Shown piece by piece: positions 5,812-62,388 of a stretch of DNA of 64,000 bases. The DNA lies in IMG/VR virus record IMGVR_UViG_3300045988_042432, one strand, 5' to 3'. The notes under the pieces were generated by a model that ran no database searches, was not told the DNA's origin, and worked only from the letters and a program-made list of their open reading frames with translations. Both the position numbers and the translations under genes were made by a program. Every line of letters starts with the position of its first letter. Position 1 is the stretch's first letter. This DNA is from a virus.

Positions 5812-7416
5812 TTATTTAATAAATATGTTAATAGGGAGCACAGTATTATCACTGAATCTTACCTCCCCGCCAGTTATTTCACCACTGGCATTCTTATACA
5901 AATCTACTCCAGTTGGAGTTATAGTTCCATATGTTTCCCAAGTTTCTCCATTCCAAGCATAGTTAGCACCGTCATTAATAACGTTGTAAATATCACCTAC
6001 TTCTGGAGCAGAAGGTAAATACATACGAGTAGCTACAGACCCCTTATATCTAATAGCTGTAGAATCAGAAGATATAAGTATATCTCCATTACCGAGTACT
6101 GACTTACCATTAATCTTCTTAATGTTAACTCCACTAACAAGCTTATCTTGTTTAGTAGATAGTAAGTACTCCATAGTATCTTTCAATGTATTAATTGATT
6201 GTTGTATATGTGTTAAGTCAATAGATACATCTTCGGAACCGTCGTAACTAACCTCTCCTTCAGAATGCTTAACTGTTAAAGTTCCTACTGGATAACTCTC
6301 TGGTAAATCAGCGAGTCTGGTAGCTTTAGCAGTAGTTACTTCATTCCAAGTATAAGAAGTCAAGTCTGACATTAATGCAAGTGAATCAGTGTCTTCCCCT
6401 ACTACAACAGCTGGTCTTGTGTTAGTATATATCTCCAGATAAGAATTAACATTACCAAGTTTAAACCCTCCGGAATTGTCAGATGATATTAAATTCTGAA
6501 CACCGTCTCTACGATTAACCACAATTCCTTGACCTTCCTCTAATACTATATTACCATCAACCAAACTAACTTTATTGTCTAAATCACTTTCGATATTAGA
6601 TATAAGAGCGTCAGTTTCTGATTTAGTATAATATAAGTCAGGGTCTAAACCTCCACCACCTTCAGAGGCATATTTAACTCCATTAAGGTAAATAGACTTA
6701 ATGTCCTTTATGAAGTAAATGGTATTAGGTTCCAAAGTCTGTAGTAAATACTCATCGTAAGTATCTACGGCTTTAATTCTTACTGGGTATTCTGTACCTT
6801 CCCAACTAAATTTACAAACAACTCCTTTATCACCCTTAGTAATAACTATGTTAGAATCAGCATCAGTATCAACTACTAAGTCTGCCCTAACTCCAAAGTT
6901 TGAAGCTAATAAATCTACAGACCTATTAGTAATTGGATTATTAATTTTTAATTCTGATGCAATATTACCATTCTTAGTCTGGGTAATAATAGTATTAGTT
7001 ATTTGTCCTTTAGCTACAAAGTCTTCCAGAGACACTTCAAATCTATCTCCATTAGAAGCAGTAAGTATCAGCCATTCCTCATTCAGTGCATTACCGAATC
7101 CGTTATCTATATCCTCTTGTGTTATAAGATGTCTTTCAAACGAAACTATCTTAGTATCTTTATCAAGAAGGATTGATGATATTTCCTCACCACTTCCTCC
7201 TTTACCTATAACTCTAACCTTATTACCTTCTTCTTGAGTATCGAGTTCTACTATACCAGTTACCTGAGTAGCAATAGCATCTTTGATAGCTTTAGAAGAA
7301 GGAATAGAGTCTTCAACGTCTATTGAGTCCGACACCGTATATGGGCCATATGTTGTCCACAAGTAGTCCAACTGGCTCATATTAGCGGGTCTATTAGGAT
7401 ACTGTTTCTTCATCAC
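5812..7416 (-). CDS. structural protein, function unassigned
   Basis: 534-aa ORF packed tightly in the fibre run; overlaps the upstream gene by 23 nt. Confidence 0.55.
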   Translation of the reverse strand: MMKKQYPNRPANMSQLDYLWTTYGPYTVSDSIDVEDSIPSSKAIKDAIATQVTGIVELDTQEEGNKVRVIGKGGSGEEISSILLDKDTKIVSFERHLITQEDIDNGFGNALNEEWLILTASNGDRFEVSLEDFVAKGQITNTIITQTKNGNIASELKINNPITNRSVDLLASNFGVRADLVVDTDADSNIVITKGDKGVVCKFSWEGTEYPVRIKAVDTYDEYLLQTLEPNTIYFIKDIKSIYLNGVKYASEGGGGLDPDLYYTKSETDALISNIESDLDNKVSLVDGNIVLEEGQGIVVNRRDGVQNLISSDNSGGFKLGNVNSYLEIYTNTRPAVVVGEDTDSLALMSDLTSYTWNEVTTAKATRLADLPESYPVGTLTVKHSEGEVSYDGSEDVSIDLTHIQQSINTLKDTMEYLLSTKQDKLVSGVNIKKINGKSVLGNGDILISSDSTAIRYKGSVATRMYLPSAPEVGDIYNVINDGANYAWNGETWETYGTITPTGVDLYKNASGEITGGEVRFSDNTVLPINIFIK

Positions 7417-8785
7417 CTTCTACGTCAATCCAAGTTACTTCACCACCTATATCATCTGGAAGTTGTTCTTTAGGAACCTTTCCGCTTACTAAATCTGCTT
7501 TAGACTTTAGTAGAATTTCAACTTCGGGCAAAGAAATGGCTCCAATCTGTGCTGGAGTGACTCTATGTGGATTGTTGAAATCTTTAAGGTGGCTATCAAT
7601 ATCACTTTGTAATTCGCTAATAACAACATCCAAGGCTTTAGAATCATGTGTAATGTTATCGGAAGTACCTTTAACATACAGAGCATTTCCTTCTTTTACT
7701 AAGATGTTATCTTTAGCTATATGTAACCTAACGTCAGCAGAAAGCTTATCAGCGCCAGTTCCTAATGATAACACTTTCTCCAATTCTACTACCTTATCAG
7801 GAATAGAGTTATCAACTTCCCATTCTCTAATAAGAGTTCCAACTGGAATCCTAACTACTTGCTTATCACCAGTTAGAAGTTTAAATACTATAACTAGCTC
7901 TTCCGTATCTGGGTCGTACTTAGCATCCTCTACGATAGCTGACAAACCAATTTGATGTTGCCCTATAACATTATCGTTAACCTTAATAGTTAAGAGTCCG
8001 TCTAAATATTCAGTAGTTAGTTTATAGAATAGACCGTCATTCTTTATGGTAATTCCGTTACCACTATCAGTAGATACCTTAACATTACCAGATATTGTAG
8101 TTCCAGTAATCTGTCTATCAATATCTAATTCAATGCTTGGAGTATCTTCTAGTGTAACCCAGTTAAAGTGAATAGCATGATTCACTAATTCGTCTAGCTT
8201 GCGCAGAGAATCCATTACAGATGTAGAGTCTTTAAGGTAAGTAGTTTCAGTATCAGGAACATAAGCTCCGTCTTCTCCCAAACCTACTCCTTCTTGTGTC
8301 TTATCGAGTTCGGCTTGCACCTTATCAATATTACTCTGTAATTCCTCATCAGTGCTGTCTAGATTACCTAGATGCTCTCTAATTTTAGTAATTTCCTCTG
8401 CAATGTCCTTCAGACTGTTTAAGTCCTCTGGTACACTAGTATGGTCAACACTTCCCCAGATAGCATCGTCTGCTGTCTTTCTATCTTTAATTTCCTGCTC
8501 TAATCTAGTTATCAAGTCAGCTATAGTTTCATCACTCTTAGAAGTAATAAGTTTAGTAAACTCTAACTCATCGTTAGTCTCCTTTCTAGTGACCCAATAT
8601 AGTGCTTGATTACCATCTCCGTCATTTTCAACTACCTTTAACAATCCCTTGTGTAAAATAGCATTCTCTTCAGGAGATGAATAAAATTCTTTCAGTTTCG
8701 CTTCAGTTTCGAAGATATAGTCAGCTTCTATAGGGAACGGACCACCTCTTCTAAAACTTGCTATAATTTCACTATATGCTCTCAT
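7394..8785 (-). CDS. structural protein with coiled-coil segment, function unassigned
   Basis: 463-aa ORF in the late module. Confidence 0.55.
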   Translation of the reverse strand: MRAYSEIIASFRRGGPFPIEADYIFETEAKLKEFYSSPEENAILHKGLLKVVENDGDGNQALYWVTRKETNDELEFTKLITSKSDETIADLITRLEQEIKDRKTADDAIWGSVDHTSVPEDLNSLKDIAEEITKIREHLGNLDSTDEELQSNIDKVQAELDKTQEGVGLGEDGAYVPDTETTYLKDSTSVMDSLRKLDELVNHAIHFNWVTLEDTPSIELDIDRQITGTTISGNVKVSTDSGNGITIKNDGLFYKLTTEYLDGLLTIKVNDNVIGQHQIGLSAIVEDAKYDPDTEELVIVFKLLTGDKQVVRIPVGTLIREWEVDNSIPDKVVELEKVLSLGTGADKLSADVRLHIAKDNILVKEGNALYVKGTSDNITHDSKALDVVISELQSDIDSHLKDFNNPHRVTPAQIGAISLPEVEILLKSKADLVSGKVPKEQLPDDIGGEVTWIDVEGDEETVS

Positions 8786-13676: not shown

Positions 13677-13965
13677 TACAACTCTCTAATCCGTTATATT
13701 GTTTATATCCTAGGAAATAATGTGTGTCGCCTAATCTTCTATCTCTTAATTCCTGTCTAAGAAATTTAAGATACGCTACTTCACCACCCTCAAACGATAT
13801 AATAAGTGGCTTGTCTATATTATTCATGCCAAGTGTTAACTTATAACCCCTATGTGTCCCCTCGGCAGTTTGTAGCTCTTCTAGCTTTAATTTAGCCACA
13901 TATTCTTTATGATAAATCTGTTTGAATAAATCTCTGATTGCTACTTCTAATTCTTGTAGGGTCAT
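13654..13965 (-). CDS. hypothetical protein
   Basis: 103-aa ORF between the terminase and portal genes; overlaps both. Confidence 0.5.
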   Translation of the reverse strand: MTLQELEVAIRDLFKQIYHKEYVAKLKLEELQTAEGTHRGYKLTLGMNNIDKPLIISFEGGEVAYLKFLRQELRDRRLGDTHYFLGYKQYNGLESCNECTEQE

Positions 13966-16183
13966 CGTATTGTGTAGGCCATAAATTAAACTTAGGTACT
14001 ATCTGTTGTTTCTCTGGAATAACTCCTTTATGTCTAATTCCTCTTTCGTCAACCCAATAACCGAAAGGTCTTAGTTTGTTATTAGGACTGTCCATTTCTT
14101 TAGGAACTACCCCCATTAATTCCTCGTCTCCTAGTTCGCACATACCCCATGCAGCTATAATATCAAACTTACGTTTATTCTCATAACTGTATTTAATTGC
14201 TTCTTCTAGAATTTCTTCAAACCATATATTATGACAATAATCTTCTATATGTTGAGCTATTAAATCTAATTGATGCCTAATTACTACTTCAGTAGCAGGA
14301 GCTCCGAATTGTTTACTACGACCTCCTTGTATGTCAGATTGAGTAGCTCTAGGTCTTCTCATCAAATGTCTATTCTCTTTATGTTTCTCTCTAAAGAATT
14401 GCAGAGTAGACATTCTAGTAGATTCAAGAACAGCCTGACAATCGTAATACTGCAATATCTTAAGACATGTCATATGTGCTTCACGTAAAGTCTTAGGTCT
14501 GTCCCTATAATAGCACACTATTTTAGGTTCATCTAACCCATAAGCTCTCTTTTTAACTACTACACAGAAATCAGAAGGGTCTTGAGTCTTATCAGAAGTG
14601 TCTTCACCACCCATATCAATACCGTCAATACCAGCAACATATAAATTTCTAGGTACAGCTCCATGTTCTCCTCTAATCGGATGTTCAAGTATCTTAACCT
14701 TACCTTTAGGATTACTAACAAATCTTACACTATCAATTGCTTCCTCTGTGTGCTGGTTGTTAGTAAAATTATACTCTAACTGGCCTACATCAATATGTGG
14801 TCCCAGTTTATGTAATTTAATATTAGCAAGTTGCTCACTTAACAATACAGTATTAAACTGATTATCTCCTTCAAGAGCCAAAGCATCATCAGGAGTAAAA
14901 CAGAACTCTGCACATGCAATTAAATGCTCCTTCGGGTTAGCTAGTAGAGCTTCTCTTTGGTCTAAATAGAACTTCTTAGCCTTCGCAGTATTAGTAACTC
15001 CTCTATCGTCTACATATCCATTTGCTGCTACGAATGTATAGGCAGGTATGAAGAATGAGGTAAAAGCATAAGACCCGTCTTTAGTATGGTTATGTTTATA
15101 AGGTAAGAAATTATATCCAGCTGGATTATAAAACATCTTACTAAGTCCGTCAAGTGCAGGTCCCTGGTCTCCACCTGTTCCCCACACAAATCTAGTTCCA
15201 AACTTATTACCTAGAATTTCTACAAGAGCTGTACTCTGTAAGTAAGTCTTTACTAGGATTGGGTTAGAACCAGATTCTTCAAAGAACAATCTATCCACAC
15301 GGTCTCCACGGAGTTTACGAGGAACATCTACTACGAAACCAATAATGTCTGACATGAATCCAAATTCTTCTCTGTCTTTAGTAAGAAGAGAAGCTCTCTT
15401 ATGCATATCAGAATTATACTTCTGTCTTAGATGTCTCATGCCGCCTTCTGTATCAGCATTTAAATATTCAAGCTGTTCCCAGCATTTACGAAGCACGTCA
15501 CTAACGAATTTCTCGGTAAATGCTACATATACTGTATGTGAACCTCTAACAGTTGTATATAACCTAACTCCTAAAGATGCTGCAATTTCAGAGAATCCGA
15601 CTCCACGAGCTTTAAGGGCGCACACATCCTTCTTCAACTTCTCACACATTTCTATGTAATGGAAGTACTCATACTGCTTACTAAAGAATGAAGGGAATGT
15701 AGTTTCACGACCGGTACCAGCTTGAGACACATCGGTGTTCTTTAGTCTATAATAATTAAGGAAGAAGTAATTATCACCTGTGATTCTATACCCATGTGAT
15801 TCATATCCTTGATTACATCTTCTATGTTCTTCAGTCCAGAAGTCATTATACTTCTTAGTTCCTTTAGGATAGGCACAGTATTTACCGTCTCTTAATTTAA
15901 TCTGTCTAGCTTCAGTGAACCACTCTGGATTAAAATCTAATCCTCTTTCTTCATCCACTGGTCGATATCCAGTCAGCTCATAAGATAGAGTAGGGTCGAA
16001 ATGCTTAATCTCAGTATCTAATGTTACATCCCATACAATGTTAGACGTACTAACTGATTTATCTTCTATAATAGGGTCTACGTATGGAATAGCCTCTATC
16101 AATTCTGGTTCTACTCTTTGTATTAACTCTTGAACTGTTTCTGGAACTTCGACTTTCTTCTTAGGTCTACCACGTCCAGCCAT
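13907..16183 (-). CDS. terL: terminase large subunit
   Basis: 758-aa ORF with an ATPase-like segment ...LKARGVGFSEIAA... and a later acidic nuclease-type segment ...LYVAGIDGIDMGGEDTSD.... Size and position next to the portal-sized gene also fit. Confidence 0.7.
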   Translation of the reverse strand: MAGRGRPKKKVEVPETVQELIQRVEPELIEAIPYVDPIIEDKSVSTSNIVWDVTLDTEIKHFDPTLSYELTGYRPVDEERGLDFNPEWFTEARQIKLRDGKYCAYPKGTKKYNDFWTEEHRRCNQGYESHGYRITGDNYFFLNYYRLKNTDVSQAGTGRETTFPSFFSKQYEYFHYIEMCEKLKKDVCALKARGVGFSEIAASLGVRLYTTVRGSHTVYVAFTEKFVSDVLRKCWEQLEYLNADTEGGMRHLRQKYNSDMHKRASLLTKDREEFGFMSDIIGFVVDVPRKLRGDRVDRLFFEESGSNPILVKTYLQSTALVEILGNKFGTRFVWGTGGDQGPALDGLSKMFYNPAGYNFLPYKHNHTKDGSYAFTSFFIPAYTFVAANGYVDDRGVTNTAKAKKFYLDQREALLANPKEHLIACAEFCFTPDDALALEGDNQFNTVLLSEQLANIKLHKLGPHIDVGQLEYNFTNNQHTEEAIDSVRFVSNPKGKVKILEHPIRGEHGAVPRNLYVAGIDGIDMGGEDTSDKTQDPSDFCVVVKKRAYGLDEPKIVCYYRDRPKTLREAHMTCLKILQYYDCQAVLESTRMSTLQFFREKHKENRHLMRRPRATQSDIQGGRSKQFGAPATEVVIRHQLDLIAQHIEDYCHNIWFEEILEEAIKYSYENKRKFDIIAAWGMCELGDEELMGVVPKEMDSPNNKLRPFGYWVDERGIRHKGVIPEKQQIVPKFNLWPTQYDDPTRIRSSNQRFIQTDLS

Positions 16184-42090: not shown

Positions 42091-42609
42091 GGGCCTAGAT
42101 TTGGTTTTGACAGGCGATTACAAGTTAGTAAGACGTGTAGAGTTCGTACCAACTCTTTAATAATGATACAGCAATTTAAGTGGAAACACTGAAGTAAGAA
42201 TGGCAGCCTAAGCTGCTGGCTTATCTATTAATTTAGCTCTAAGTCGGGTTAATTGGAGAGACCTAGAAACAGAAGAGGTGTGGGAAGAAGCGTATAGAGC
42301 AGCCCACTTAACTTGAAAGCCAAAGGTTAGTAAAGCTGAAATCTCCACTACCTATCTATGGGTTACAAATAGAAACGTTCTCCAACGTAAATGGAGTGGT
42401 GGAGCGACCGTTCGGTCAAGCCCAGTTTGGTAGTTTGTGAACAACTAAGTCGTAGCCCTACGAGGGAGACGTAATTGGTGAATTAACACTCGGCTTCTTA
42501 GTAAAACTACCTACATGCTGAACTCAACAGCTGATGTAATAAAATAGAGACACACGTAATCTTATTAATGAGGGTTGTTTGGACGGCGGTTCGACTCCGC
42601 CTAGGTCCA
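42091..42609 (+). ncRNA. ssrA: tmRNA (ssrA-like)
   Basis: The 5' end GGGCCUAGAUUUGGUUUUGACAGGCGAUU resembles the canonical tmRNA 5' end. The 3' end has GGCGG-UUCGACU-CCGCC-UAGGUCC-A. The acceptor GGGCCUA/UAGGUCC carries G3:U70. A possible tag frame is GGA AAC ACT GAA GTA AGA ATG GCA GCC TAA (42182-42211, GNTEVRMAA). Confidence 0.7.
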
Positions 42610-42637
42610 CTATTATTAACGTTTAAATATCAATTTT

Positions 42638-44485: not shown

Positions 44486-44865
44486 ATCCACTATTGACGA
44501 ATAGTGGTAGCAAAACTTGGTCTGAAGAACCAGTAGACATATTCCGGAGTATGTCTATGACTTAAAGGCTATATCAAAGAGTTGAAACCTGTATCTATTC
44601 GAACAGTAGGAGTTCACCTGATTAAGCATCAGAAAACAGTAGTGCAAATCTACTATAGATATTGTGTAAGAGAGAATCTACACGGTCTGTATTATATAAT
44701 CAGCATGCAGATAGGTCACCAAGCAAACCTCTTTCCTGCCTGGTCAAGTGTGCATTACGGTCTGTAAGTGGCGAGCGGGTTAACGTATGTCCGATTGCCG
44801 TAATGCCGCTTGTTTATTGTTTAGAATAAAGAAAGACTCTCATAACAATAAATTTAAACAAAGAG
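44486..44865 (+). ncRNA. ORF-poor hairpin-rich segment (candidate structured RNA)
   Basis: Hairpins include CCACTATT/AATAGTGG, TTGGT-CTGAAGA-ACCAG (a mimic of the tRNA-Phe anticodon arm) and TAGACATA/TATGTCTA. GC content is higher than in the flanks. Confidence 0.3.
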
Positions 44866-46723: not shown

Positions 46724-46797
46724 AGAGATATAGTTCAGTGGTAGAACAGCTAAAGTCAATCTTTAGAAGAACATCAGTTCGAATCTGGTTATCTCTA
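46724..46797 (+). tRNA. atypical tRNA, anticodon CAA, anticodon arm 2 nt too long, short variable region
   Basis: Acceptor AGAGATA/TATCTCT, D arm GTTC/GAAC, T arm ATCAG-TTCGAAT-CTGGT. The anticodon arm is CTAAA-GTCAATC-TTTAG with an extra G.A layer. Confidence 0.6.
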
Positions 46798-46900
46798 CAC
46801 CATTTTATTAATATGATTCTTTCAACATATGCAGTGTCATTTCTATCTCGACTCATAGTCATTATTACGAGTTAAAGTATCTGCAATTGTTGAATAACTA

Positions 46901-47047: not shown

Positions 47048-47131
47048 GGGCACGTAACCGGTAATTGGTAGCCGCGTAGACTGTAAATCTACTCCTTAAT
47101 TGGACTGGAGGTTCGAGTCCTCCCGGGCCCA
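47048..47131 (+). tRNA. tRNA-Tyr (GTA), long variable arm
   Basis: Anticodon arm GTAGA-CTGTAAA-TCTAC, T arm GGAGG-TTCGAGT-CCTCC, 3-bp D stem. Confidence 0.8.
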
Positions 47132-48866: not shown

Positions 48867-48938
48867 GCCCCATTACTTCAGTGGTAGAAGAGCAAATTCT
48901 AAACTTGTATGGCGTTGGTTCGAGTCCAACATGGGGCA
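48867..48938 (+). tRNA. suppressor tRNA, anticodon CTA (reads TAG)
   Basis: Clean cloverleaf: GCCCCAT-TA-CTTC-AGTGGTA-GAAG-A-GCAAA-TTCTAAA-CTTGT-ATGGC-GTTGG-TTCGAGT-CCAAC-ATGGGGC-A. Confidence 0.8.
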
Positions 48939-48940
48939 CT

Positions 48941-50506: not shown

Positions 50507-50593
50507 GTGCAGTTGGCCGAGTGGTCGAAGGCAATAGACTGTTAATCTATCGTGACGAAAGTCCCACCGCAAGTTCGAATCTTGCACTGCACG
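50507..50593 (+). tRNA. long-variable-arm (type II, Ser-like body) tRNA with GTT (Asn) anticodon
   Basis: GTGCAGT-TG-GCC-GAGTGGTCGAA-GGC-A-ATAGA-CTGTTAA-TCTAT-[18-nt variable arm]-GCAAG-TTCGAAT-CTTGC-ACTGCAC-G. Confidence 0.7.
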
Positions 50594-50718
50594 CAAACAC
50601 ATTAGATTATTAACATTAAATTATAAGATTATGCATAGTTTTGGTGCTTACATTGTGGGAGCTATAGTGCTAGTAGTATTGTATTACATCTTTAAAGATT
50701 CCACAATCTAAAATTGAT

Positions 50719-50803: not shown

Positions 50804-50889
50804 GGAAGTATGGCAGAGTTGGTCGATTGCACTGGTCTTGAAAACCAGAGGTCCTTCGGGGTCCGGGGGTTCGAATCCCTCTGCTTCCT
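50804..50889 (+). tRNA. tRNA-Ser (TGA)
   Basis: Anticodon arm CTGGT-CTTGAAA-ACCAG with a long variable arm. Confidence 0.85.
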
Positions 50890-53624: not shown

Positions 53625-53696
53625 GGGGCGGTAGCTCAATGGTAGAGCGCAGGTCTGAAGAACCTGGCGTTGGGGGTTCGATTCCCTTCTGCCCCA
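53625..53696 (+). tRNA. tRNA-Phe (GAA)
   Basis: Acceptor GGGGCGG/CTGCCCC, anticodon arm CAGGT-CTGAAGA-ACCTG. Confidence 0.85.
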
Positions 53697-53701
53697 CCTA
53701 T

Positions 53702-54172
53702 ATGGGAACTTTAATAAGTAAATTTAGTGATGAAGAGTTTAGTAATATAGTTAAGGAATCTGAAACAGTTTCCGAAATAGCTTCTAAGCTCGGCTATAAG
53801 TCAAAGGGAGGTGGAGTTACTAGACTGATTAAAGATAAGATAGAAGAGCTGGGTATAGACATATCTCATTTTAATAGATATGCTAAAAATCATTCGCCTG
53901 AAAGGTATAAGTCCTTAGAAGATATTCTAGTAGAAGATTCTACTTATACCAACAACACTTCTTTAAAGAAGAGGCTATTGGAATCTAATTTACTAGAATA
54001 TAAGTGTAGTATATGTGGTATTAATGAGTGGCAAGGAAAGCCGTTATCATTACAACTGGACCATATTAATGGGAATAACAAGGATAATAGAATAGAAAAT
54101 CTTAGATTGCTATGTCCTAATTGCCATTCCCAAACTGATACGTTTTCAGGTAAAAACGCATCACATTATTAA
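53702..54172 (+). CDS. HNH homing-type endonuclease
   Basis: The track ORF begins inside the tRNA. The ATG at 53702 gives MGTLISKF...CSICGINEWQGKPLSLQLDHINGNNKDNRIENLRLLCPNCHSQ. Confidence 0.8.
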   Translation: MGTLISKFSDEEFSNIVKESETVSEIASKLGYKSKGGGVTRLIKDKIEELGIDISHFNRYAKNHSPERYKSLEDILVEDSTYTNNTSLKKRLLESNLLEYKCSICGINEWQGKPLSLQLDHINGNNKDNRIENLRLLCPNCHSQTDTFSGKNASHY

Positions 54173-56821: not shown

Positions 56822-56909
56822 GGAGAGTTGGGTGAGTGGCTTAAACCAGTCCCCTGCTAAGGGACCGAACCTCAAAAGGGTTCCGCTGGTTCGAATCCAG
56901 CACTCTCCG
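56822..56909 (+). tRNA. tRNA-Ser (GCT)
   Basis: Acceptor GGAGAGT/ACTCTCC, anticodon arm GTCCC-CTGCTAA-GGGAC, long variable arm, G73. Confidence 0.85.
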
Positions 56910-56961
56910 CGCTGGCTAATAAGAGTTTGCGAAAATCATTATTAACCTAATTATTAGAATT

Positions 56962-59045: not shown

Positions 59046-59128
59046 GCCGACTTCGCATAGTGGTTGATTGCACGTGACTTGTAATCACGAGAGGAAACTC
59101 CACGTCAGTTCGAATCTGACAGTCGGCT
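59046..59128 (+). tRNA. long-variable-arm (type II) tRNA with TGT (Thr) anticodon
   Basis: GCCGACT-TC-GCA-TAGTGGTTGAT-TGC-A-CGTGA-CTTGTAA-TCACG-[AGAGGAAACTCCAC]-GTCAG-TTCGAAT-CTGAC-AGTCGGC-T. Confidence 0.7.
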
Positions 59129-59215
59129 CGATTGTAATCCTAGATGATTACAGTTAGATTATAAATTACCACACAGAGATGCTTATTGAATTTAACATGT
59201 TAAATGTAAGTGTAA

Positions 59216-59596
59216 ATGAGCAGTTTTAAAGAGAAATTAAGTAAGAGTGGACAAAGTGTACTTGATGCAAGAGCGCAGAATCTGTATGAATTGGCTAAAA
59301 TCGAGGAAGACAGATTTGTTCAGGATTGTAAGTTGAAAGTACTCCGCATTCAGGGAGAAATCAACAAACACAATGACCTGGCTGTTAAATCAAGAGACTC
59401 TTTGAATCCGGGAGAAGGACTGAATCCGGCTGAATGGGTAAGAACAAGACATGAATTGGCACGTAAACTGCGTGTTGCAAAGATTGAACTTGCTCTAGCT
59501 ATGCAAGTCGATGCAGAAGAATTTCCCGCTGATGCATCAGAATCCATTAATTTGGATGACGTGAAAGATGACGCTGCTGCAACTGTAAATGAATAA
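59216..59596 (+). CDS. hypothetical coiled-coil protein
   Basis: 126-aa ORF. Confidence 0.6.
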   Translation: MSSFKEKLSKSGQSVLDARAQNLYELAKIEEDRFVQDCKLKVLRIQGEINKHNDLAVKSRDSLNPGEGLNPAEWVRTRHELARKLRVAKIELALAMQVDAEEFPADASESINLDDVKDDAAATVNE

Positions 59597-60566: not shown

Positions 60567-61316
60567 ATGGGTAAGAAATTGACCGAGGAGGAAGTAATAT
60601 CTAGGTTTAGAGATGTTCATGGAGACAAATACGACTATAGTAAAGTCGTCTATGTAGATATGAACTCTAAAGTAACCATTATATGTCCGGAGCATGGAGA
60701 GTTTGAACAAACTCCCGCCAAACATATTAATAGGAAGCATGGATGCCCTAAATGCAAGGGTACTAAACTAAGAAACCACTTCTCTTCTACTACCGAAGAA
60801 TTTGTAAGGAAGGCTGTTAGCAAACATGGCGACAGATATAACTACTCTAAAGTAGAGTATGTTAATTCTAGAACTAAGGTTTGTATCATGTGCAAAAAGC
60901 ACGGGGAATTTTACGTAACTCCAGATAACCATCTGAAAGGACGTGGATGTCCTAGATGCAAACAGTCTCGTGGAGAGAACATGATTGAAGCATGGTTACA
61001 ACGAAGTAATATTCGTTATGAACGACAATTCGTATTGATTAACCAGGAGATAGACAGGCCCTCACATAGATTAGTTATTGATTTCTTTGTAAAGCATAAA
61101 GGACGTCAGTATTTCATAGAGTACGATGGGGAACAGCACTTCAGCCCAACCTATAGATTCTATGATAGCATGGCTGATTTCCAAATGCAACAACACAGGG
61201 ACCAGCTACTTAATGATTTCTGTGATAGACATAAGGATGCAGTTACCTTGATAAGGGTGAATTGTAGACAATGTGAAGCAGAGATAACTCATACATTAAG
61301 TAGCACAATAGCATAA
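60567..61316 (+). CDS. putative homing endonuclease (Vsr/PD-(D/E)xK-like nuclease with duplicated zinc-ribbon modules)
   Basis: Two repeats of GD(K/R)Y(D/N)YSKV.Y......KV.I.C..HGEF...P..H...GCP(K/R)C, then VIDFFV...IEYDGEQHF. Confidence 0.6.
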   Translation: MGKKLTEEEVISRFRDVHGDKYDYSKVVYVDMNSKVTIICPEHGEFEQTPAKHINRKHGCPKCKGTKLRNHFSSTTEEFVRKAVSKHGDRYNYSKVEYVNSRTKVCIMCKKHGEFYVTPDNHLKGRGCPRCKQSRGENMIEAWLQRSNIRYERQFVLINQEIDRPSHRLVIDFFVKHKGRQYFIEYDGEQHFSPTYRFYDSMADFQMQQHRDQLLNDFCDRHKDAVTLIRVNCRQCEAEITHTLSSTIA

Positions 61317-61320
61317 TTTT

Positions 61321-62388
61321 ATGATAAATATAGTTTTAGGTAGTTTCTTCGGCGATTGCGGTAAGGGACAGACAGTTCACAACTTATGTAACAAGTACAT
61401 AGGTAAGCGAGAGTCTGTGTTAGTAGTCAGGTTTAGTGGTGGACATCAAGTAGGACATACTGTAAAGCATGGAGACATGATGCACACCTTTAGTAACTTT
61501 GGCAGCGGAACCTTACTTGGAGTGCCGACGTACTGGTCCGAATACTGTACTGTAGACCCAATTACCTCTATGTTGGAGGGTGCAGACTTAGCTAAAATGG
61601 GAGTTCATCCCATTGTTCAGTATCACCCTCACTGCCAAGTTGTAATTCCCTTCGATGTCTATTCCCAAGTTAATAACGAAGAGAACTTACGACATGGTAC
61701 TGTAGGTACAGGGTTTAAAGCTTGTTTGGACCGAGTTAAGGCAGGATACAGCTTAACAGTTGTAGATTGTATGAATCCTTACATACTGCGTGAGAAACTA
61801 AATGCCATAGTGGATAACTATTACAACATGTCTAGTAAATATCCTTCGATAGACCTAGACAACTGGTGTAGGTTAGCACATGCTTATTTCTTACATACAG
61901 GTACGGTTAATGAAGATTGCTTGTTGAATTATGATAACCTAGTGTTTGAAGGTTCACAGGGAATATTGCTTGACCAAAGATTCGGCATAATGCCTTATTG
62001 TACTCCGTCTAATACAACTTCACAAAACGCTTACGAGCTGTTGCGGAAAGCAGGTATACGTAAAGAAATCCAAACTTGTTATGTAACTCGTCCTTATATA
62101 ACAAGGCATGGTAACGGCCCGTTTCCTTCTGGAATGTCTGTTAGGGATGTCGATGACCCTAATAATAAGTTCAACGATTTCCAGAAGACGCTTAGGGCTA
62201 TTGATTTCGACAAAGACCTATTCGCACACAGTGTACGCATTAACCGTTCATTTAAGGTTCCTTATAGGAATGAACGAACGGAGAAATTGTACGTATCACA
62301 TTGGGATGAAGCATCTGACGCAGAGCGAGAAATGCTAGCAAATTTATGGATGTCGATACAGCCCATGATATTCGATAAGTTAGTTTAG
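61321..62388 (+). CDS. short adenylosuccinate-synthetase (PurA)-family enzyme, PurZ-like
   Basis: 355-aa ORF with FFGDCGKG, VVRFSGGHQVGHTV, FEGSQGILLDQRFGIMPYCTPSNTT and YVTRPYITRHGNGPFP, which align to PurA landmarks. The GTP-specificity (S/T)KLD box and the C-terminal roughly 80 aa of PurA are missing. Confidence 0.7.
   Translation: MINIVLGSFFGDCGKGQTVHNLCNKYIGKRESVLVVRFSGGHQVGHTVKHGDMMHTFSNFGSGTLLGVPTYWSEYCTVDPITSMLEGADLAKMGVHPIVQYHPHCQVVIPFDVYSQVNNEENLRHGTVGTGFKACLDRVKAGYSLTVVDCMNPYILREKLNAIVDNYYNMSSKYPSIDLDNWCRLAHAYFLHTGTVNEDCLLNYDNLVFEGSQGILLDQRFGIMPYCTPSNTTSQNAYELLRKAGIRKEIQTCYVTRPYITRHGNGPFPSGMSVRDVDDPNNKFNDFQKTLRAIDFDKDLFAHSVRINRSFKVPYRNERTEKLYVSHWDEASDAEREMLANLWMSIQPMIFDKLV

What the first reader, a model, noticed from the sequence alone, without database searches (positions are those of the whole stretch)
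59046..59128. Second long-variable-arm tRNA, this one with a Thr anticodon UGU
It has the same type II architecture: a 3-bp D stem and a 14-nt variable arm with a GAG-GAAA-CTC hairpin. The anticodon loop is CTTGTAA, one base away from the CTTGAAA loop of tRNA-Ser(TGA) at 50804. The acceptor starts G1-C72, C2-G71, which is also compatible with ThrRS identity.

Together with 50507 this makes two Ser-like bodies with anticodons one mutation away from Ser. Conversely, the only Leu-anticodon tRNA (46724) lacks a long arm. I saw no canonical tRNA-Thr or tRNA-Leu in the window.
Basis: partly seen in the sequence, partly recalled or inferred. Interest (0 to 1): 0.65.

Follow-up and report, generated by a model that had tools for sequence, protein, structure and literature searches.

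The report
Long-armed threonine tRNA in gut phage
A gut phage carries a threonine tRNA built on the long-armed frame that textbooks reserve for leucine, serine and tyrosine tRNAs; it belongs to a conserved, widespread family that includes the tRNA-Thr of phage T5 and that I did not find described.

Summary
Window 59046-59128 (+) is a high-scoring tRNA with anticodon UGU, a 3-bp D stem and a 14-nt variable arm (GAG-GAAA-CTC hairpin).

It is not a decaying copy and not a serine tRNA with a mutated anticodon:
- A search with only its D-arm sequence pulled out over 100 viral contigs, almost all carrying the same long-armed tRNA-Thr(UGU). Every stem, including the variable-arm stem, shows compensatory changes.
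- Acceptor identity is threonine-like (G1-C72, C2-G71, U73), as in neighbouring ordinary Thr tRNAs and in a Bacteroidales cellular tRNA-Thr. Neighbouring Ser tRNAs have G2-C71 and G73.
- The arm geometry resembles tRNA-Tyr, not tRNA-Ser.
- ACA codons in this phage lineage evolve as threonine codons.
- The gene holds the same position in relatives whose flanking proteins are only 33-68% identical.

The same type occurs in phage T5, where published work shows the T5 tRNA-Thr(UGU) helps rescue cells from the PARIS nuclease. It also replaces the ordinary gene at a chromosomal tRNA-Thr locus in some Spirosomataceae.

Best reading: a working ThrRS-charged tRNA-Thr on a long-armed frame. The arm may help it escape tRNA-cutting defences; this is inferred, not shown.

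The "missing" canonical tRNA-Leu genes lie just past the window end.

The parts
59046..59128 (+). Whole tRNA-Thr(UGU) gene of class II (long variable arm) architecture, G1 to discriminator U73. No CCA is encoded; the next bases are CGA.
   Evidence: ARAGORN; Rfam RF00005 57.8 bits; sequence.
59046..59052 (+). Acceptor stem 5' strand GCCGACT. It pairs with 59121-59127 (AGTCGGC). G1-C72, C2-G71 and C3-G70 form the Thr-type identity set.
   Evidence: Sequence. All 7 pairs covary in the family and 99.5% of cells are paired. Identity positions tabulated.
59053..59072 (+). U8, C9, D stem GCA/TGC (3 bp), 11-nt D loop TAGTGGTTGAT and A26. This is the signature D arm of the family.
   Evidence: The pattern GCATAGYGGTYGAYTGCA alone retrieved over 100 long-armed Thr(UGU) genes from viral contigs.
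59073..59089 (+). Anticodon arm: stem CGTGA/TCACG and loop CTTGTAA, with anticodon TGT at 59080-59082. Positions 36-41 read UAAUCA.
   Evidence: ARAGORN places the anticodon at position 35. All 5 stem pairs covary. Motif survey.
59090..59103 (+). Variable arm, 14 nt: A (59090), stem GAG (59091-59093), loop GAAA (59094-59097), stem CTC (59098-59100), 3' spacer CAC (59101-59103).
   Evidence: All 3 stem pairs have double-sided changes and are 100% paired in 29 distinct sequences. Geometry is Tyr-like, not Ser-like.
59104..59120 (+). T arm: GTCAG, loop TTCGAAT, CTGAC. The T loop is canonical.
   Evidence: Sequence; 3 of 5 pairs covary.
59121..59128 (+). Acceptor stem 3' strand AGTCGGC plus discriminator U73 (59128).
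   Evidence: U73 in 60 of 63 distinct family members, and also the commonest discriminator in co-resident type I Thr tRNAs. A Parabacteroides cellular tRNA-Thr(UGU) also has U73.
59216..59596 (+). Downstream ORF of 126 aa with no family match. It is not part of the tRNA. It marks the conserved genomic position: its homologue lies next to the long-armed tRNA-Thr in diverged relatives.
   Evidence: tblastn synteny: flanking proteins 54-68% identical in L019, L092, L041 and L099, and 32-36% in L010, L050, L054, L083 and L096. No Pfam or PHROG hit.

Best explanation
This is a working elongator tRNA-Thr(UGU). It is charged with threonine by the host threonyl-tRNA synthetase and reads ACA (and ACG) as threonine. 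It is built on a class II, long-variable-arm frame whose geometry resembles bacterial tRNA-Tyr.

It belongs to a widespread, vertically and horizontally maintained family of long-armed tRNA-Thr(UGU) genes. The family is found mainly in phage tRNA arrays, including coliphage T5, and sporadically at a chromosomal tRNA-Thr locus in Spirosomataceae.

Shown here: the fold, its conservation by compensatory change, the Thr-type acceptor identity, the threonine meaning of ACA in this phage lineage, and the family's distribution.

Inferred: charging by ThrRS. This rests on the identity elements, the T5 rescue experiments in the literature, and the replacement of the ordinary gene at an orthologous bacterial locus.

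More speculative (about 0.35 on its own): the different D arm and long variable arm change the body of the tRNA, so that host tRNA-targeting defence nucleases that read the tRNA body no longer recognise it. PARIS AriB is the known example; it cleaves tRNA-Lys(UUU), Thr(UGU) and Asn(GUU). ThrRS reads only the acceptor stem and the anticodon, so it would still charge the tRNA.
For: 1. Real tRNA: RF00005 57.8 bits, full-length match; ARAGORN call.

2. Family: the D-arm-only pattern hit at least 119 IMG/VR contigs. ARAGORN found 110 tRNAs at those sites: 102 Thr(tgt), 1 Thr(agt), 4 Gly(tcc) and 3 Tyr(gta), nearly all 81-89 nt.

3. Purifying selection on the fold: 98.7% of cells are paired and 18 of 23 pairs have double-sided changes. 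The variable-arm stem is 3 of 3 covarying and 100% paired. Controls with the 3' partner slid by 1-3 columns give 30-41% paired.

4. Identity: G1-C72 in 60 of 63, C2-G71 in 61 of 63, U73 in 60 of 63. This matches co-resident type I Thr tRNAs and is opposite to co-resident Ser tRNAs at 2-71. It is the same set as in a Parabacteroides cellular tRNA-Thr(UGU). C2-G71 is an antideterminant for E. coli SerRS, and Thr identity lies in acceptor pairs plus the anticodon (PMC9976931).

5. Arm geometry is Tyr-like, not Ser-like.

6. Codon meaning: in relatives at 75-90% protein identity, 35.5% of ACA codons change at the third position only. Other four-fold codons ending in A give 25-38% (GCA, CCA, GGA, GTA, TCA). 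Residues opposite ACA are T 0.74 and S 0.04, against T 0.75 and S 0.04 opposite ACT.

7. Orthology: the gene holds the same position, upstream of the o59216 homologue, in phages whose flanking proteins are 33-68% identical. All stems differ by compensatory changes.

8. It is the only Thr tRNA in an otherwise near-complete phage tRNA set.

9. T5's single tRNA-Thr(tgt) is 87 nt and long-armed. Expressing the T5 tRNA Lys, Thr and Asn variants rescues E. coli from PARIS (PMC12409363).

10. In Spirosoma aerolatum and two Cytophagales MAGs, a long-armed Thr(tgt) sits downstream of the DUF349 gene. Flectobacillus, Siphonobacter, Larkinella, Fibrisoma and Pseudarcicella have an ordinary 74-nt Thr(tgt) at that position.

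11. For the defence idea:
- AriB reads the D loop and other distal parts of the tRNA as well as the cleavage site.
- T5 tRNA-Tyr is reported to resist retron-Eco7 through its distinctive variable loop (PMC13096335).
- In this window the two long-armed oddities are Thr(UGU) and Asn(GUU), two of the three main AriB targets.
Against: - There is no direct aminoacylation or expression evidence for this gene or for any family member other than T5. The T5 evidence comes from overexpression, and its authors note that viral tRNAs might act partly as competitors of AriB.
- The family was collected with a fixed D-arm pattern, so D-stem invariance is uninformative and the sample is biased.
- Eleven loci carry both an ordinary and a long-armed Thr(tgt), so the two may not be simply redundant.
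- Against the defence idea: the window tRNA and 27% of the family keep the exact AriB site UAAUCA at positions 36-41.
- The excess of long arms among AriB-linked anticodons other than Thr is modest and post hoc (odds ratio 2.5, p = 0.008).
- Free-living Spirosomataceae also carry the long-armed form.
- I have no evidence that PARIS-like systems occur in the hosts of this phage.
Confidence: 0.77

Rival explanations
1. It is a serine-accepting tRNA: a tRNA-Ser(UGA) derivative with an A36U change. It would insert Ser at ACA codons, giving deliberate mistranslation or recoding of Thr to Ser.
For: It has a long variable arm, which is the main SerRS determinant, and SerRS ignores the anticodon (PMC9976931). 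The loop is one base from the loop of the window's tRNA-Ser(tga), and the D arm resembles that tRNA's (GCA..GGTYGATTGCA). C11-G24 is present.
Against: C2-G71, an antideterminant for E. coli SerRS, and U73 are nearly invariant in the family. Co-resident Ser tRNAs have G2-C71, and most have G73. The variable stem is only 3 bp with a 3-nt 3' spacer, against 5-6 bp and 1 nt in Ser tRNAs. ACA sites evolve like ACT sites and unlike Ser codons.
Confidence: 0.05
2. It is mainly a decoy rather than a decoder. It would bind and titrate a host tRNA-targeting nuclease or toxin, or a phage factor, and contribute little to translation.
For: Belukhina et al. raise competition with AriB as a possible mode of rescue by overexpressed viral tRNAs. 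Eleven phage loci carry both an ordinary and a long-armed Thr(tgt). The window tRNA keeps the AriB site UAAUCA.
Against: The ThrRS identity set, the anticodon and a canonical T loop and elbow are all conserved, and a pure decoy would not need all of these. It is the only Thr tRNA in a near-complete phage set. The same form replaces the ordinary gene at a bacterial chromosomal locus.
Confidence: 0.07
3. It is a working tRNA-Thr, but the long arm has no adaptive role. ThrRS and the ribosome tolerate it, and one successful gene lineage has spread among phages by recombination of tRNA arrays.
For: Long-armed and ordinary forms alternate at one chromosomal locus in free-living Spirosomataceae. Phage arrays also hold long-armed Asn, Cys, Pro, His, Lys, Gly and Trp tRNAs, and short Leu tRNAs, which suggests loose constraint on tRNA class. 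The AriB site is often retained.
Against: The arm's geometry is tightly conserved: 3-bp stem, tetraloop, C-N-C tail with two invariant C. By my arithmetic, the family is roughly 100-fold denser per base in viral contigs than in bacterial genomes. Variable-loop differences are already known to decide sensitivity of tRNA-Tyr to retron-Eco7.
Confidence: 0.4
4. It is a decaying duplicate or pseudogene of a class II tRNA.
For: The architecture is unusual for its anticodon, and no CCA is encoded.
Against: It scores high against the covariance model. The identical sequence occurs in 12 strain-level contigs. It is retained at the orthologous position, with compensatory changes, in relatives whose neighbouring proteins are 33-68% identical. 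Family-wide covariation is strong.
Confidence: 0.02

Closest known systems
Bacteriophage T5 tRNA-Thr(UGU) (and T5 tRNA-Asn(GUU))
   Same: Both have anticodon UGU, a GC-start acceptor (G1-C72, C2-G71), a 3-bp GCA/TGC D stem with an 11-nt D loop, and a long variable arm of N + 3 bp + tetraloop + 3 bp + tail. Both sit in a phage tRNA array. T5 tRNA-Asn also has a 13-nt arm (GTC-GAAA-GAC-AAC), paralleling the window's long-armed Asn at 50507. The T5 genes work in vivo: together with T5 tRNA-Lys they rescue E. coli from PARIS (PMC12409363).
   Different: T5 has A73 and an encoded CCA, a G13...A22 D loop (GAATGGTTGAA) and G9. The window family has U73, mostly no CCA, U13...U22 and C9. T5 infects E. 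coli, whereas this is a crAss-like gut phage. The PARIS paper does not mention the variable arm (0 occurrences of 'variable').
Canonical bacterial type I tRNA-Thr(UGU), e.g. Parabacteroides (L246) or Flectobacillus (L243)
   Same: Same anticodon loop, G1-C72/C2-G71/C3-G70, U73 and T loop.
   Different: The canonical form has a 4-bp D stem with an 8-9-nt loop and a 5-nt variable loop, 74-75 nt in all. Here the D stem is 3 bp, the D loop 11 nt and the variable arm 14 nt.
Bacterial class II tRNA-Tyr
   Same: Same body plan: 3-bp D stem, 11-nt D loop, and a short variable arm with a 3-bp stem and a 3-4-nt 3' spacer. Three viral contigs carry tRNA-Tyr(gta) with the identical D arm, including C9.
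   Different: tRNA-Tyr has A73 and anticodon GUA. This tRNA has U73, C2-G71 and UGU, so it lacks the tyrosine identity elements.
Nematode nev-tRNAs (class II tRNAs with Gly or Ile anticodons; PMC3333845, PMC4300185)
   Same: Long-variable-arm tRNAs whose anticodons belong to class I isotypes, conserved within a lineage.
   Different: nev-tRNAs keep leucine identity and are mischarged with Leu in vitro. Here the acceptor identity has followed the anticodon (Thr), and the codon evidence shows no reassignment.
allo-tRNAs (PMC5389517)
   Same: Unusual long-armed tRNAs with varied anticodons, found in metagenomes and phages.
   Different: allo-tRNAs have 8/4 or 9/3 acceptor/T-stem arrangements and serine identity. 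This tRNA has the standard 7/5 arrangement and Thr-type identity.

Membership tests
tRNA (Rfam RF00005) | Cloverleaf that matches the covariance model above its gathering score | tested here: met
   57.8 bits against a threshold of 29; model positions 1-71 of 71.
Class II (type II) tRNA | Variable region longer than 10 nt that forms its own stem-loop, with a 3-bp D stem | tested here: met
   14-nt region with the GAG/CTC stem. All 3 pairs covary and are 100% paired in 29 sequences. D stem GCA/TGC.
tRNA-Thr (ThrRS substrate) | Acceptor pairs G1-C72 and C2-G71, plus anticodon G35 and U36 | tested here: met
   Present in the window tRNA and in 60-61 of 63 family members. The rule comes from PMC9976931 and from established E. 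coli and T. thermophilus identity studies.
tRNA-Thr (ThrRS substrate) | Actual aminoacylation with threonine | not testable with these tools
   Indirect support only: the T5 homologue rescues E. coli depleted of tRNA-Thr(UGU) (PMC12409363), ACA means Thr, and the form replaces the ordinary gene at a bacterial tRNA-Thr locus.
tRNA-Ser (SerRS substrate) | G2-C71 (with A3-U70) and G73 | tested here: not met
   The tRNA has C2-G71, C3-G70 and U73. C2-G71 is an antideterminant for E. coli SerRS.
tRNA-Ser (SerRS substrate) | Long variable arm of Ser type: 5-7-bp stem with about 1 unpaired base before the T stem | tested here: not met
   3-bp stem and 3-nt 3' spacer. Co-resident Ser tRNAs have 5-6 bp and 1 nt.
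Bacterial tRNA-Tyr | A73 and anticodon G34-U35-A36 | tested here: not met
   U73 and anticodon UGU. Only the body geometry is Tyr-like.
allo-tRNA | 8/4 or 9/3 acceptor/T-stem configuration | tested here: not met
   7-bp acceptor stem and 5-bp T stem.
Phage long-armed tRNA-Thr(UGU) family (defined here) | U8-C9, GCA/TGC D stem, D loop TAGYGGTYGAT, A26, loop YTTGTAA, variable arm N + 3 bp + 4 nt + 3 bp + C-N-C, U73 | tested here: met
   The window sequence served as the query and is identical to the gene in 12 IMG/VR contigs. It aligns without gaps to 28 other distinct members.

The most novel reading that the evidence does not exclude
Phages maintain a modular, Tyr-like class II tRNA frame: C9, a 3-bp D stem, D loop TAGTGGYYGAT, and a short hairpin arm with a 3-nt tail. 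Onto this frame they have moved the identities of several class I isoacceptors: Thr(UGU) above all, but also Asn, Lys, His, Gly, Trp, Cys and Pro. Conversely, they carry short-armed Leu tRNAs. On this reading, switching tRNA class is a general counter-defence. It keeps the synthetase determinants (acceptor stem and anticodon) but changes the body that defence nucleases such as PARIS AriB, retron-Eco7 PtuAB or Septu read. The resistance of T5's tRNA-Thr and tRNA-Asn to PARIS would then be due to their class II body rather than to changes near the cleavage site.
Probability: 0.3. Interest if true: 0.85.

Novelty: new variant of a known kind. Interest (0 to 1): 0.62.

Why it matters
Textbooks and current reviews state that only Leu, Ser, bacterial Tyr and Sec tRNAs have long variable arms (for example PMC7609411 and PMC11559606).

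This work points to a conserved class II tRNA-Thr(UGU) that carries threonine identity elements. It is common in phage tRNA arrays from many environments, present in the model phage T5, and able to stand in for the ordinary gene on some bacterial chromosomes.

Three consequences follow:
- ThrRS, EF-Tu and the ribosome would accept a long-armed tRNA-Thr. This is inferred from sequence and from the T5 experiments, not measured here.
- Annotation pipelines and isotype models should not flag such genes as mismatches or pseudogenes.
- The finding gives a concrete, testable explanation for how T5 tRNA-Thr and tRNA-Asn escape PARIS, in a system that already works in laboratory E. coli.

Tried and rejected
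- Megablast of the tRNA region against cultured-phage records found nothing. Only TerL matched an unannotated 117-kb gut contig, MT835470.1.
- Literature searches for a long-armed or class II tRNA-Thr, in phages, Bacteroidota or T5, found no description. A paper on tRNA-dependent DNA modification was a false lead.
- My memory that the first PARIS paper named Thr and Asn targets was wrong. The later paper, PMC12409363, does name them.
- The bacterial Schlafen and FaRel2 papers say nothing that bears on the variable arm. FaRel2 reads only the acceptor stem.
- The idea that the phage simply copies its host's tRNA is not supported: a Bacteroidales genome (Parabacteroides) has an ordinary 75-nt Thr(tgt) in the tuf cluster.
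- The idea that the family systematically avoids the AriB cleavage motif is rejected: 27% of members keep UAAUCA.
- An intron or insertion removed after transcription is implausible. The 14 nt form a covarying hairpin of fixed geometry, and no bacterial splicing system acts at this position (inference).
- Pfam and PHROG searches of the neighbouring ORFs gave nothing linked to tRNA function.

Full report
**1. What is there**

ARAGORN finds 23 tRNA genes between 41.4 and 62.5 kb of the window. One is tRNA-Thr(tgt) at 59046-59129, 84 nt long. Rfam's tRNA model matches 59046-59128 over its full length at 57.8 bits, against a gathering score of 29. The extra arm appears as an 11-nt insertion between the anticodon and T arms.

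Read directly from the sequence, the gene consists of:
- acceptor GCCGACT/AGTCGGC
- U8, C9
- D stem GCA/TGC with the 11-nt loop TAGTGGTTGAT
- A26
- anticodon stem CGTGA/TCACG with loop CTTGTAA
- variable region A-GAG-GAAA-CTC-CAC (14 nt)
- T arm GTCAG-TTCGAAT-CTGAC
- discriminator U73, with no encoded CCA

A minimum-free-energy fold recovers the acceptor, anticodon, variable and T helices. The gene lies in an intergenic gap, 57 nt after tRNA-Asp and 87 nt before a 126-aa ORF, all on the + strand.

**2. Whose genome**

The large terminase (window 13907-16183, minus strand) is 100% identical to one on an unannotated 117-kb human-faecal contig, MT835470.1. It is about 30% identical to terminases of crAss-like phages of Bacteroides. 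Portal and tail genes surround it.

The tRNA region has no close match among cultured-phage records. It does occur at 97-99% identity in a dozen IMG/VR contigs of 95-270 kb.

**3. It is one of a large family**

A weak BLAST hit to a Pseudomonas jumbo phage (HPP-Temi) revealed an 87-nt tRNA-Thr(tgt) with the same D arm, U73 and a long arm. I then scanned IMG/VR with the D arm alone, GCATAGYGGTYGAYTGCA, specifying no anticodon.

ARAGORN found a tRNA at 110 of them: 102 Thr(tgt), 1 Thr(agt), 4 Gly(tcc) and 3 Tyr(gta). Nearly all were 81-89 nt long. Including further copies found in the fetched loci, there are 63 distinct long-armed Thr(tgt) sequences.

The same pattern in one genome per bacterial and archaeal species gave 120 rows:
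- 101 were chance matches with no tRNA. My arithmetic expects about 139 chance matches in 596 Gb.
- 10 were long-armed Thr(tgt).
- 9 were Ser or Leu tRNAs.

Using chance matches as a yardstick for bases scanned, the family is on the order of 100 times denser in viral contigs than in cellular genomes. This is a rough estimate, because both scans were truncated.

**4. The fold is under selection**

I aligned 29 distinct members of equal arm length (A1) and counted the pairs of the class II cloverleaf. In all, 98.7% of cells are paired and 18 of 23 pairs show changes on both sides. The three variable-arm pairs all covary and are always paired. Sliding the 3' partners by one to three columns drops pairing to 30-41%. 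The D stem is invariant only because it was the search pattern.

Within the window phage's own lineage the gene keeps its place upstream of the homologue of ORF 59216-59596:
- In four contigs the flanking proteins are 54-68% identical.
- In five more the neighbouring ORF is 32-36% identical.
- The acceptor, anticodon and variable stems are all rewritten by compensatory changes. For example, GCCGACT / CGTGA / GAG-CTC becomes GCCGCCT / CCTCA / TCC-GGA.

**5. Which amino acid**

I tabulated the acceptor identity positions for all tRNAs in the 119 loci.

| tRNA group | 1-72 | 2-71 | 3-70 | Discriminator |
|---|---|---|---|---|
| Long-armed Thr(tgt), 63 distinct | G-C in 60 | C-G in 61 | C-G in 50 | U73 in 60 |
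| Co-resident ordinary Thr tRNAs | same pattern | same pattern | same pattern | same pattern |
| Co-resident Ser tRNAs | mostly G-C | G-C in nearly all | mostly A-U | G73 in the majority |

A Parabacteroides genome, from the order that crAss-like phages infect, has an ordinary 75-nt tRNA-Thr(tgt) in its tuf cluster. That tRNA also has GCC...U73.

According to the Giegé and Eriani review, threonine identity lies in acceptor pairs plus the anticodon. Serine identity lies mainly in the long arm, helped by the acceptor stem and G73. C2-G71 is an antideterminant against E. coli SerRS (PMC9976931).

The arm itself is not of the serine type:
- In the family it is 14 nt: a 1-nt 5' spacer, a 3-bp stem, a tetraloop and a 3-nt 3' spacer.
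- Co-resident Tyr tRNAs match this (3-bp stem, 3-4-nt spacer).
- Ser tRNAs have 5-6-bp stems and a 1-nt spacer. Leu tRNAs have 4-5-bp stems and a 1-nt spacer.

Three viral contigs carry tRNA-Tyr with the identical D arm, including C9. The body is therefore Tyr-like, the identity elements are Thr-like, and "Ser-like" does not fit.

**6. What ACA means**

I fetched relatives through the terminase and paired codons of 18 window ORFs with their orthologues.

In ten relatives at 75-90% protein identity, ACA codons change at the third position only in 35.5% of cases. The comparable figures are 31% for GCA, TCA and GGA, 38% for CCA and 25% for GTA. Exchanges between ACA and ACT, ACC or ACG therefore behave as silent.

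The residues opposite ACA are T 0.74 and S 0.04, the same as opposite ACT (T 0.75, S 0.04). Ser codons show S 0.68-0.75, apart from the rarer AGC at 0.48. More distant relatives give the same picture.

ACA is the second most used Thr codon in these ORFs: 167 ACA against 392 ACT, 49 ACC and 21 ACG. A tRNA that decodes ACA in this phage should therefore carry threonine.

**7. Cultured phages and bacteria**

A family consensus found long-armed Thr(tgt) genes, annotated simply as tRNA-Thr, in Sinorhizobium phages of the phiM12 group, in two Pseudomonas phages, and in T5-like phages.

T5's only tRNA-Thr is 87 nt. Its parts are GCTGGGT, TG, GCA-GAATGGTTGAA-TGC, A, CCTGA-TTTGTAA-TCAGG, the arm A-GGA-GTAA-TCC-CGTT, then the T arm, A73 and CCA. 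T5 tRNA-Asn(gtt) also has a 13-nt hairpin arm, and both T5 Leu tRNAs are short, at 77 nt.

Belukhina et al. 2025 (PMC12409363) showed the following:
- The PARIS nuclease AriB cleaves E. coli tRNA-Lys(UUU), Thr(UGU) and Asn(GUU) between positions 40 and 41.
- Recognition also involves the D loop (U16-U17) and further distal contacts.
- Expressing the T5 Lys, Thr and Asn tRNAs together rescues cells and phages.

That paper never mentions the variable arm. It does show that a long-armed tRNA-Thr(UGU) is biologically active in E. coli.

In bacteria, a long-armed Thr(tgt) sits immediately downstream of a DUF349 gene (with pdxH upstream) in Spirosoma aerolatum and two Cytophagales MAGs. Flectobacillus, Siphonobacter, Larkinella, Fibrisoma and Pseudarcicella have an ordinary 74-nt Thr(tgt) at exactly that place. 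The two forms differ throughout the D arm, so this is gene replacement, not an insertion into the old gene. I could not check whether these genomes hold another Thr(tgt) elsewhere.

**8. Why a long arm**

This part is inference. ThrRS reads the acceptor end and the anticodon, so the body is free to change. Defence nucleases that deplete particular tRNAs read the body as well. AriB does so for Lys, Thr and Asn. [quoted passage not shown]

Points in favour of a counter-defence role:
- The window's two long-armed oddities are Thr(UGU) and Asn(GUU), as in T5.
- In the 119 phage loci, long arms also occur in Asn (20%), Ile(UAU), Cys, Pro, Gly, His and Lys tRNAs. They never occur in Asp, Glu, Gln or Phe tRNAs.
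- Long arms show a modest, post hoc excess among anticodons linked to AriB (odds ratio 2.5, p = 0.008).

Points against:
- The window tRNA and 27% of the family keep the AriB site UAAUCA.
- Free-living bacteria carry the form too.
- Nothing is known about PARIS-like systems in this phage's hosts.

I put the counter-defence reading at about one in three. A neutral, tolerated variant that spread with tRNA arrays is about as likely.

**9. Limits**

- The family was collected with a fixed D-arm pattern. Members such as T5 (a different D loop) or Spirosoma aerolatum (GGA/TCC D stem) are missed, so counts are lower bounds and the sample is biased.
- Only ARAGORN and Rfam were available. No isotype-specific models were used.
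- There is no expression or charging evidence for this gene.
- The literature library lacks most subscription journals. The T5 tRNA sequencing papers of the 1980s may have noted the extra arm. In what I could search, no paper describes a class II tRNA-Thr.

**10. Verdict**

The gene is best read as a functional threonine tRNA of an unremarked but widespread class II family. The sequence fact is present in public records, T5 included. Recognising it as a conserved class, with Thr identity and Tyr-like geometry, appears to be new. I score interest at 0.62.

Noticed in passing
window 50507-50594 (+): tRNA-Asn(gtt), 88 nt, is also class II. Its arm is Ser-like in geometry (GTGAC-GAAA-GTC(C)CAC, about 6 bp with a bulge, 1-nt 3' spacer). 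It has G73, which both AsnRS and SerRS favour, and U2-A71. Long-armed Asn tRNAs in other phage arrays have G73 in 8 of 8 and U1-A72 in 6 of 8, like ordinary Asn tRNAs. T5 tRNA-Asn also has a 13-nt arm.
   Followed up: partly
window 46724-46798 (+); L036, L043 and L076 beyond the window end: tRNA-Leu(caa) is only 75 nt, with no long arm, A1-U72 and pyrimidine T37. Canonical long-armed Leu(tag) of 83 nt and Leu(taa) of 87 nt, plus two Met(cat), lie just past the window end in strain-level relatives. T5's two Leu tRNAs are also short (77 nt), and 26-35% of Leu(taa/tag) tRNAs in the 119 phage loci are short.
   Followed up: partly
IMG/VR loci, e.g. L080 (Lys ttt, 87 nt), L026 (His gtg 84 nt, Lys ttt 86 nt), L029 (Gly gcc 88 nt, Gly tcc 87 nt), L057 (Trp cca 84 nt), L012 (Asn gtt 84 nt): The same Tyr-like class II frame carries other class I anticodons: C9, 3-bp D stem, D loop TAGTGGYYGAT, and an arm of N + 3 bp + tetraloop + 3 bp + 3-nt tail. 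Where I tabulated it (Asn, Gly, Cys), the acceptor and discriminator identity matches the anticodon's amino acid, for example U73 for Cys and Gly and G73 for Asn.
   Followed up: partly
window 42091-42612 (+): A tmRNA gene (RF00023, 85.8 bits) spans 522 nt against a 374-position model, so it probably carries an insertion. ARAGORN did not call it.
   Followed up: no
window 44488-44595 (+): Strong match to RAGATH-34 RNA (RF03103, 120.9 bits against a threshold of 60.7), directly upstream of a 564-aa ORF with a weak PHROG match to an 'RNA-binding protein'.
   Followed up: no
window 48867-48939 (+): Amber suppressor tRNA (anticodon CTA), typical of gut phages that recode TAG. The long ORFs of the window nevertheless read through in the standard code.
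   Followed up: no
window 61321-62388 (+): Adenylosuccinate-synthetase homologue. It matches the PHROG family annotated as the PurZ-type enzyme (E = 6e-45), which hints at a 2-aminoadenine (Z-base) genome.
   Followed up: no
window 60567-61316 (+); also 53639-54172 (+): HNH/homing endonuclease genes sit inside the tRNA region. The one at 60567 has no tblastn match in L064, L069, L074, L076, L103 and L110, although those loci carry both flanking ORFs.
   Followed up: partly
relatives L262-L270, L281, L284, L287 and L309 (terminase gene): In many close relatives the terminase match spans 3271 nt instead of 2274 nt. This means a roughly 1-kb insertion (intron or intein) in TerL that the window copy lacks.
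   Followed up: no
window 56849-56925 (-): ARAGORN calls a tRNA-Arg(tcg) on the minus strand overlapping tRNA-Ser(gct) at 56822-56910 (+). This is most likely a mirror-image artefact. Neither it nor Ser(gct) nor Tyr(gta) at 47048 reached Rfam's gathering list.
   Followed up: no
L242 (Spirosoma aerolatum CP020104) 6393-8419: The chromosomal long-armed tRNA-Thr is followed at once by HTH/DDE transposase genes and an AbiGi gene. This suggests that a mobile island arrived with, or next to, the replacement tRNA.
   Followed up: no
L001 (Pseudomonas phage HPP-Temi) 1594-1680: Next to its long-armed tRNA-Thr lies an 87-nt tRNA annotated as Phe with anticodon AAA. The anticodon region looks like a 5-nt loop, so this is an odd class II tRNA of unclear identity.
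   Followed up: no
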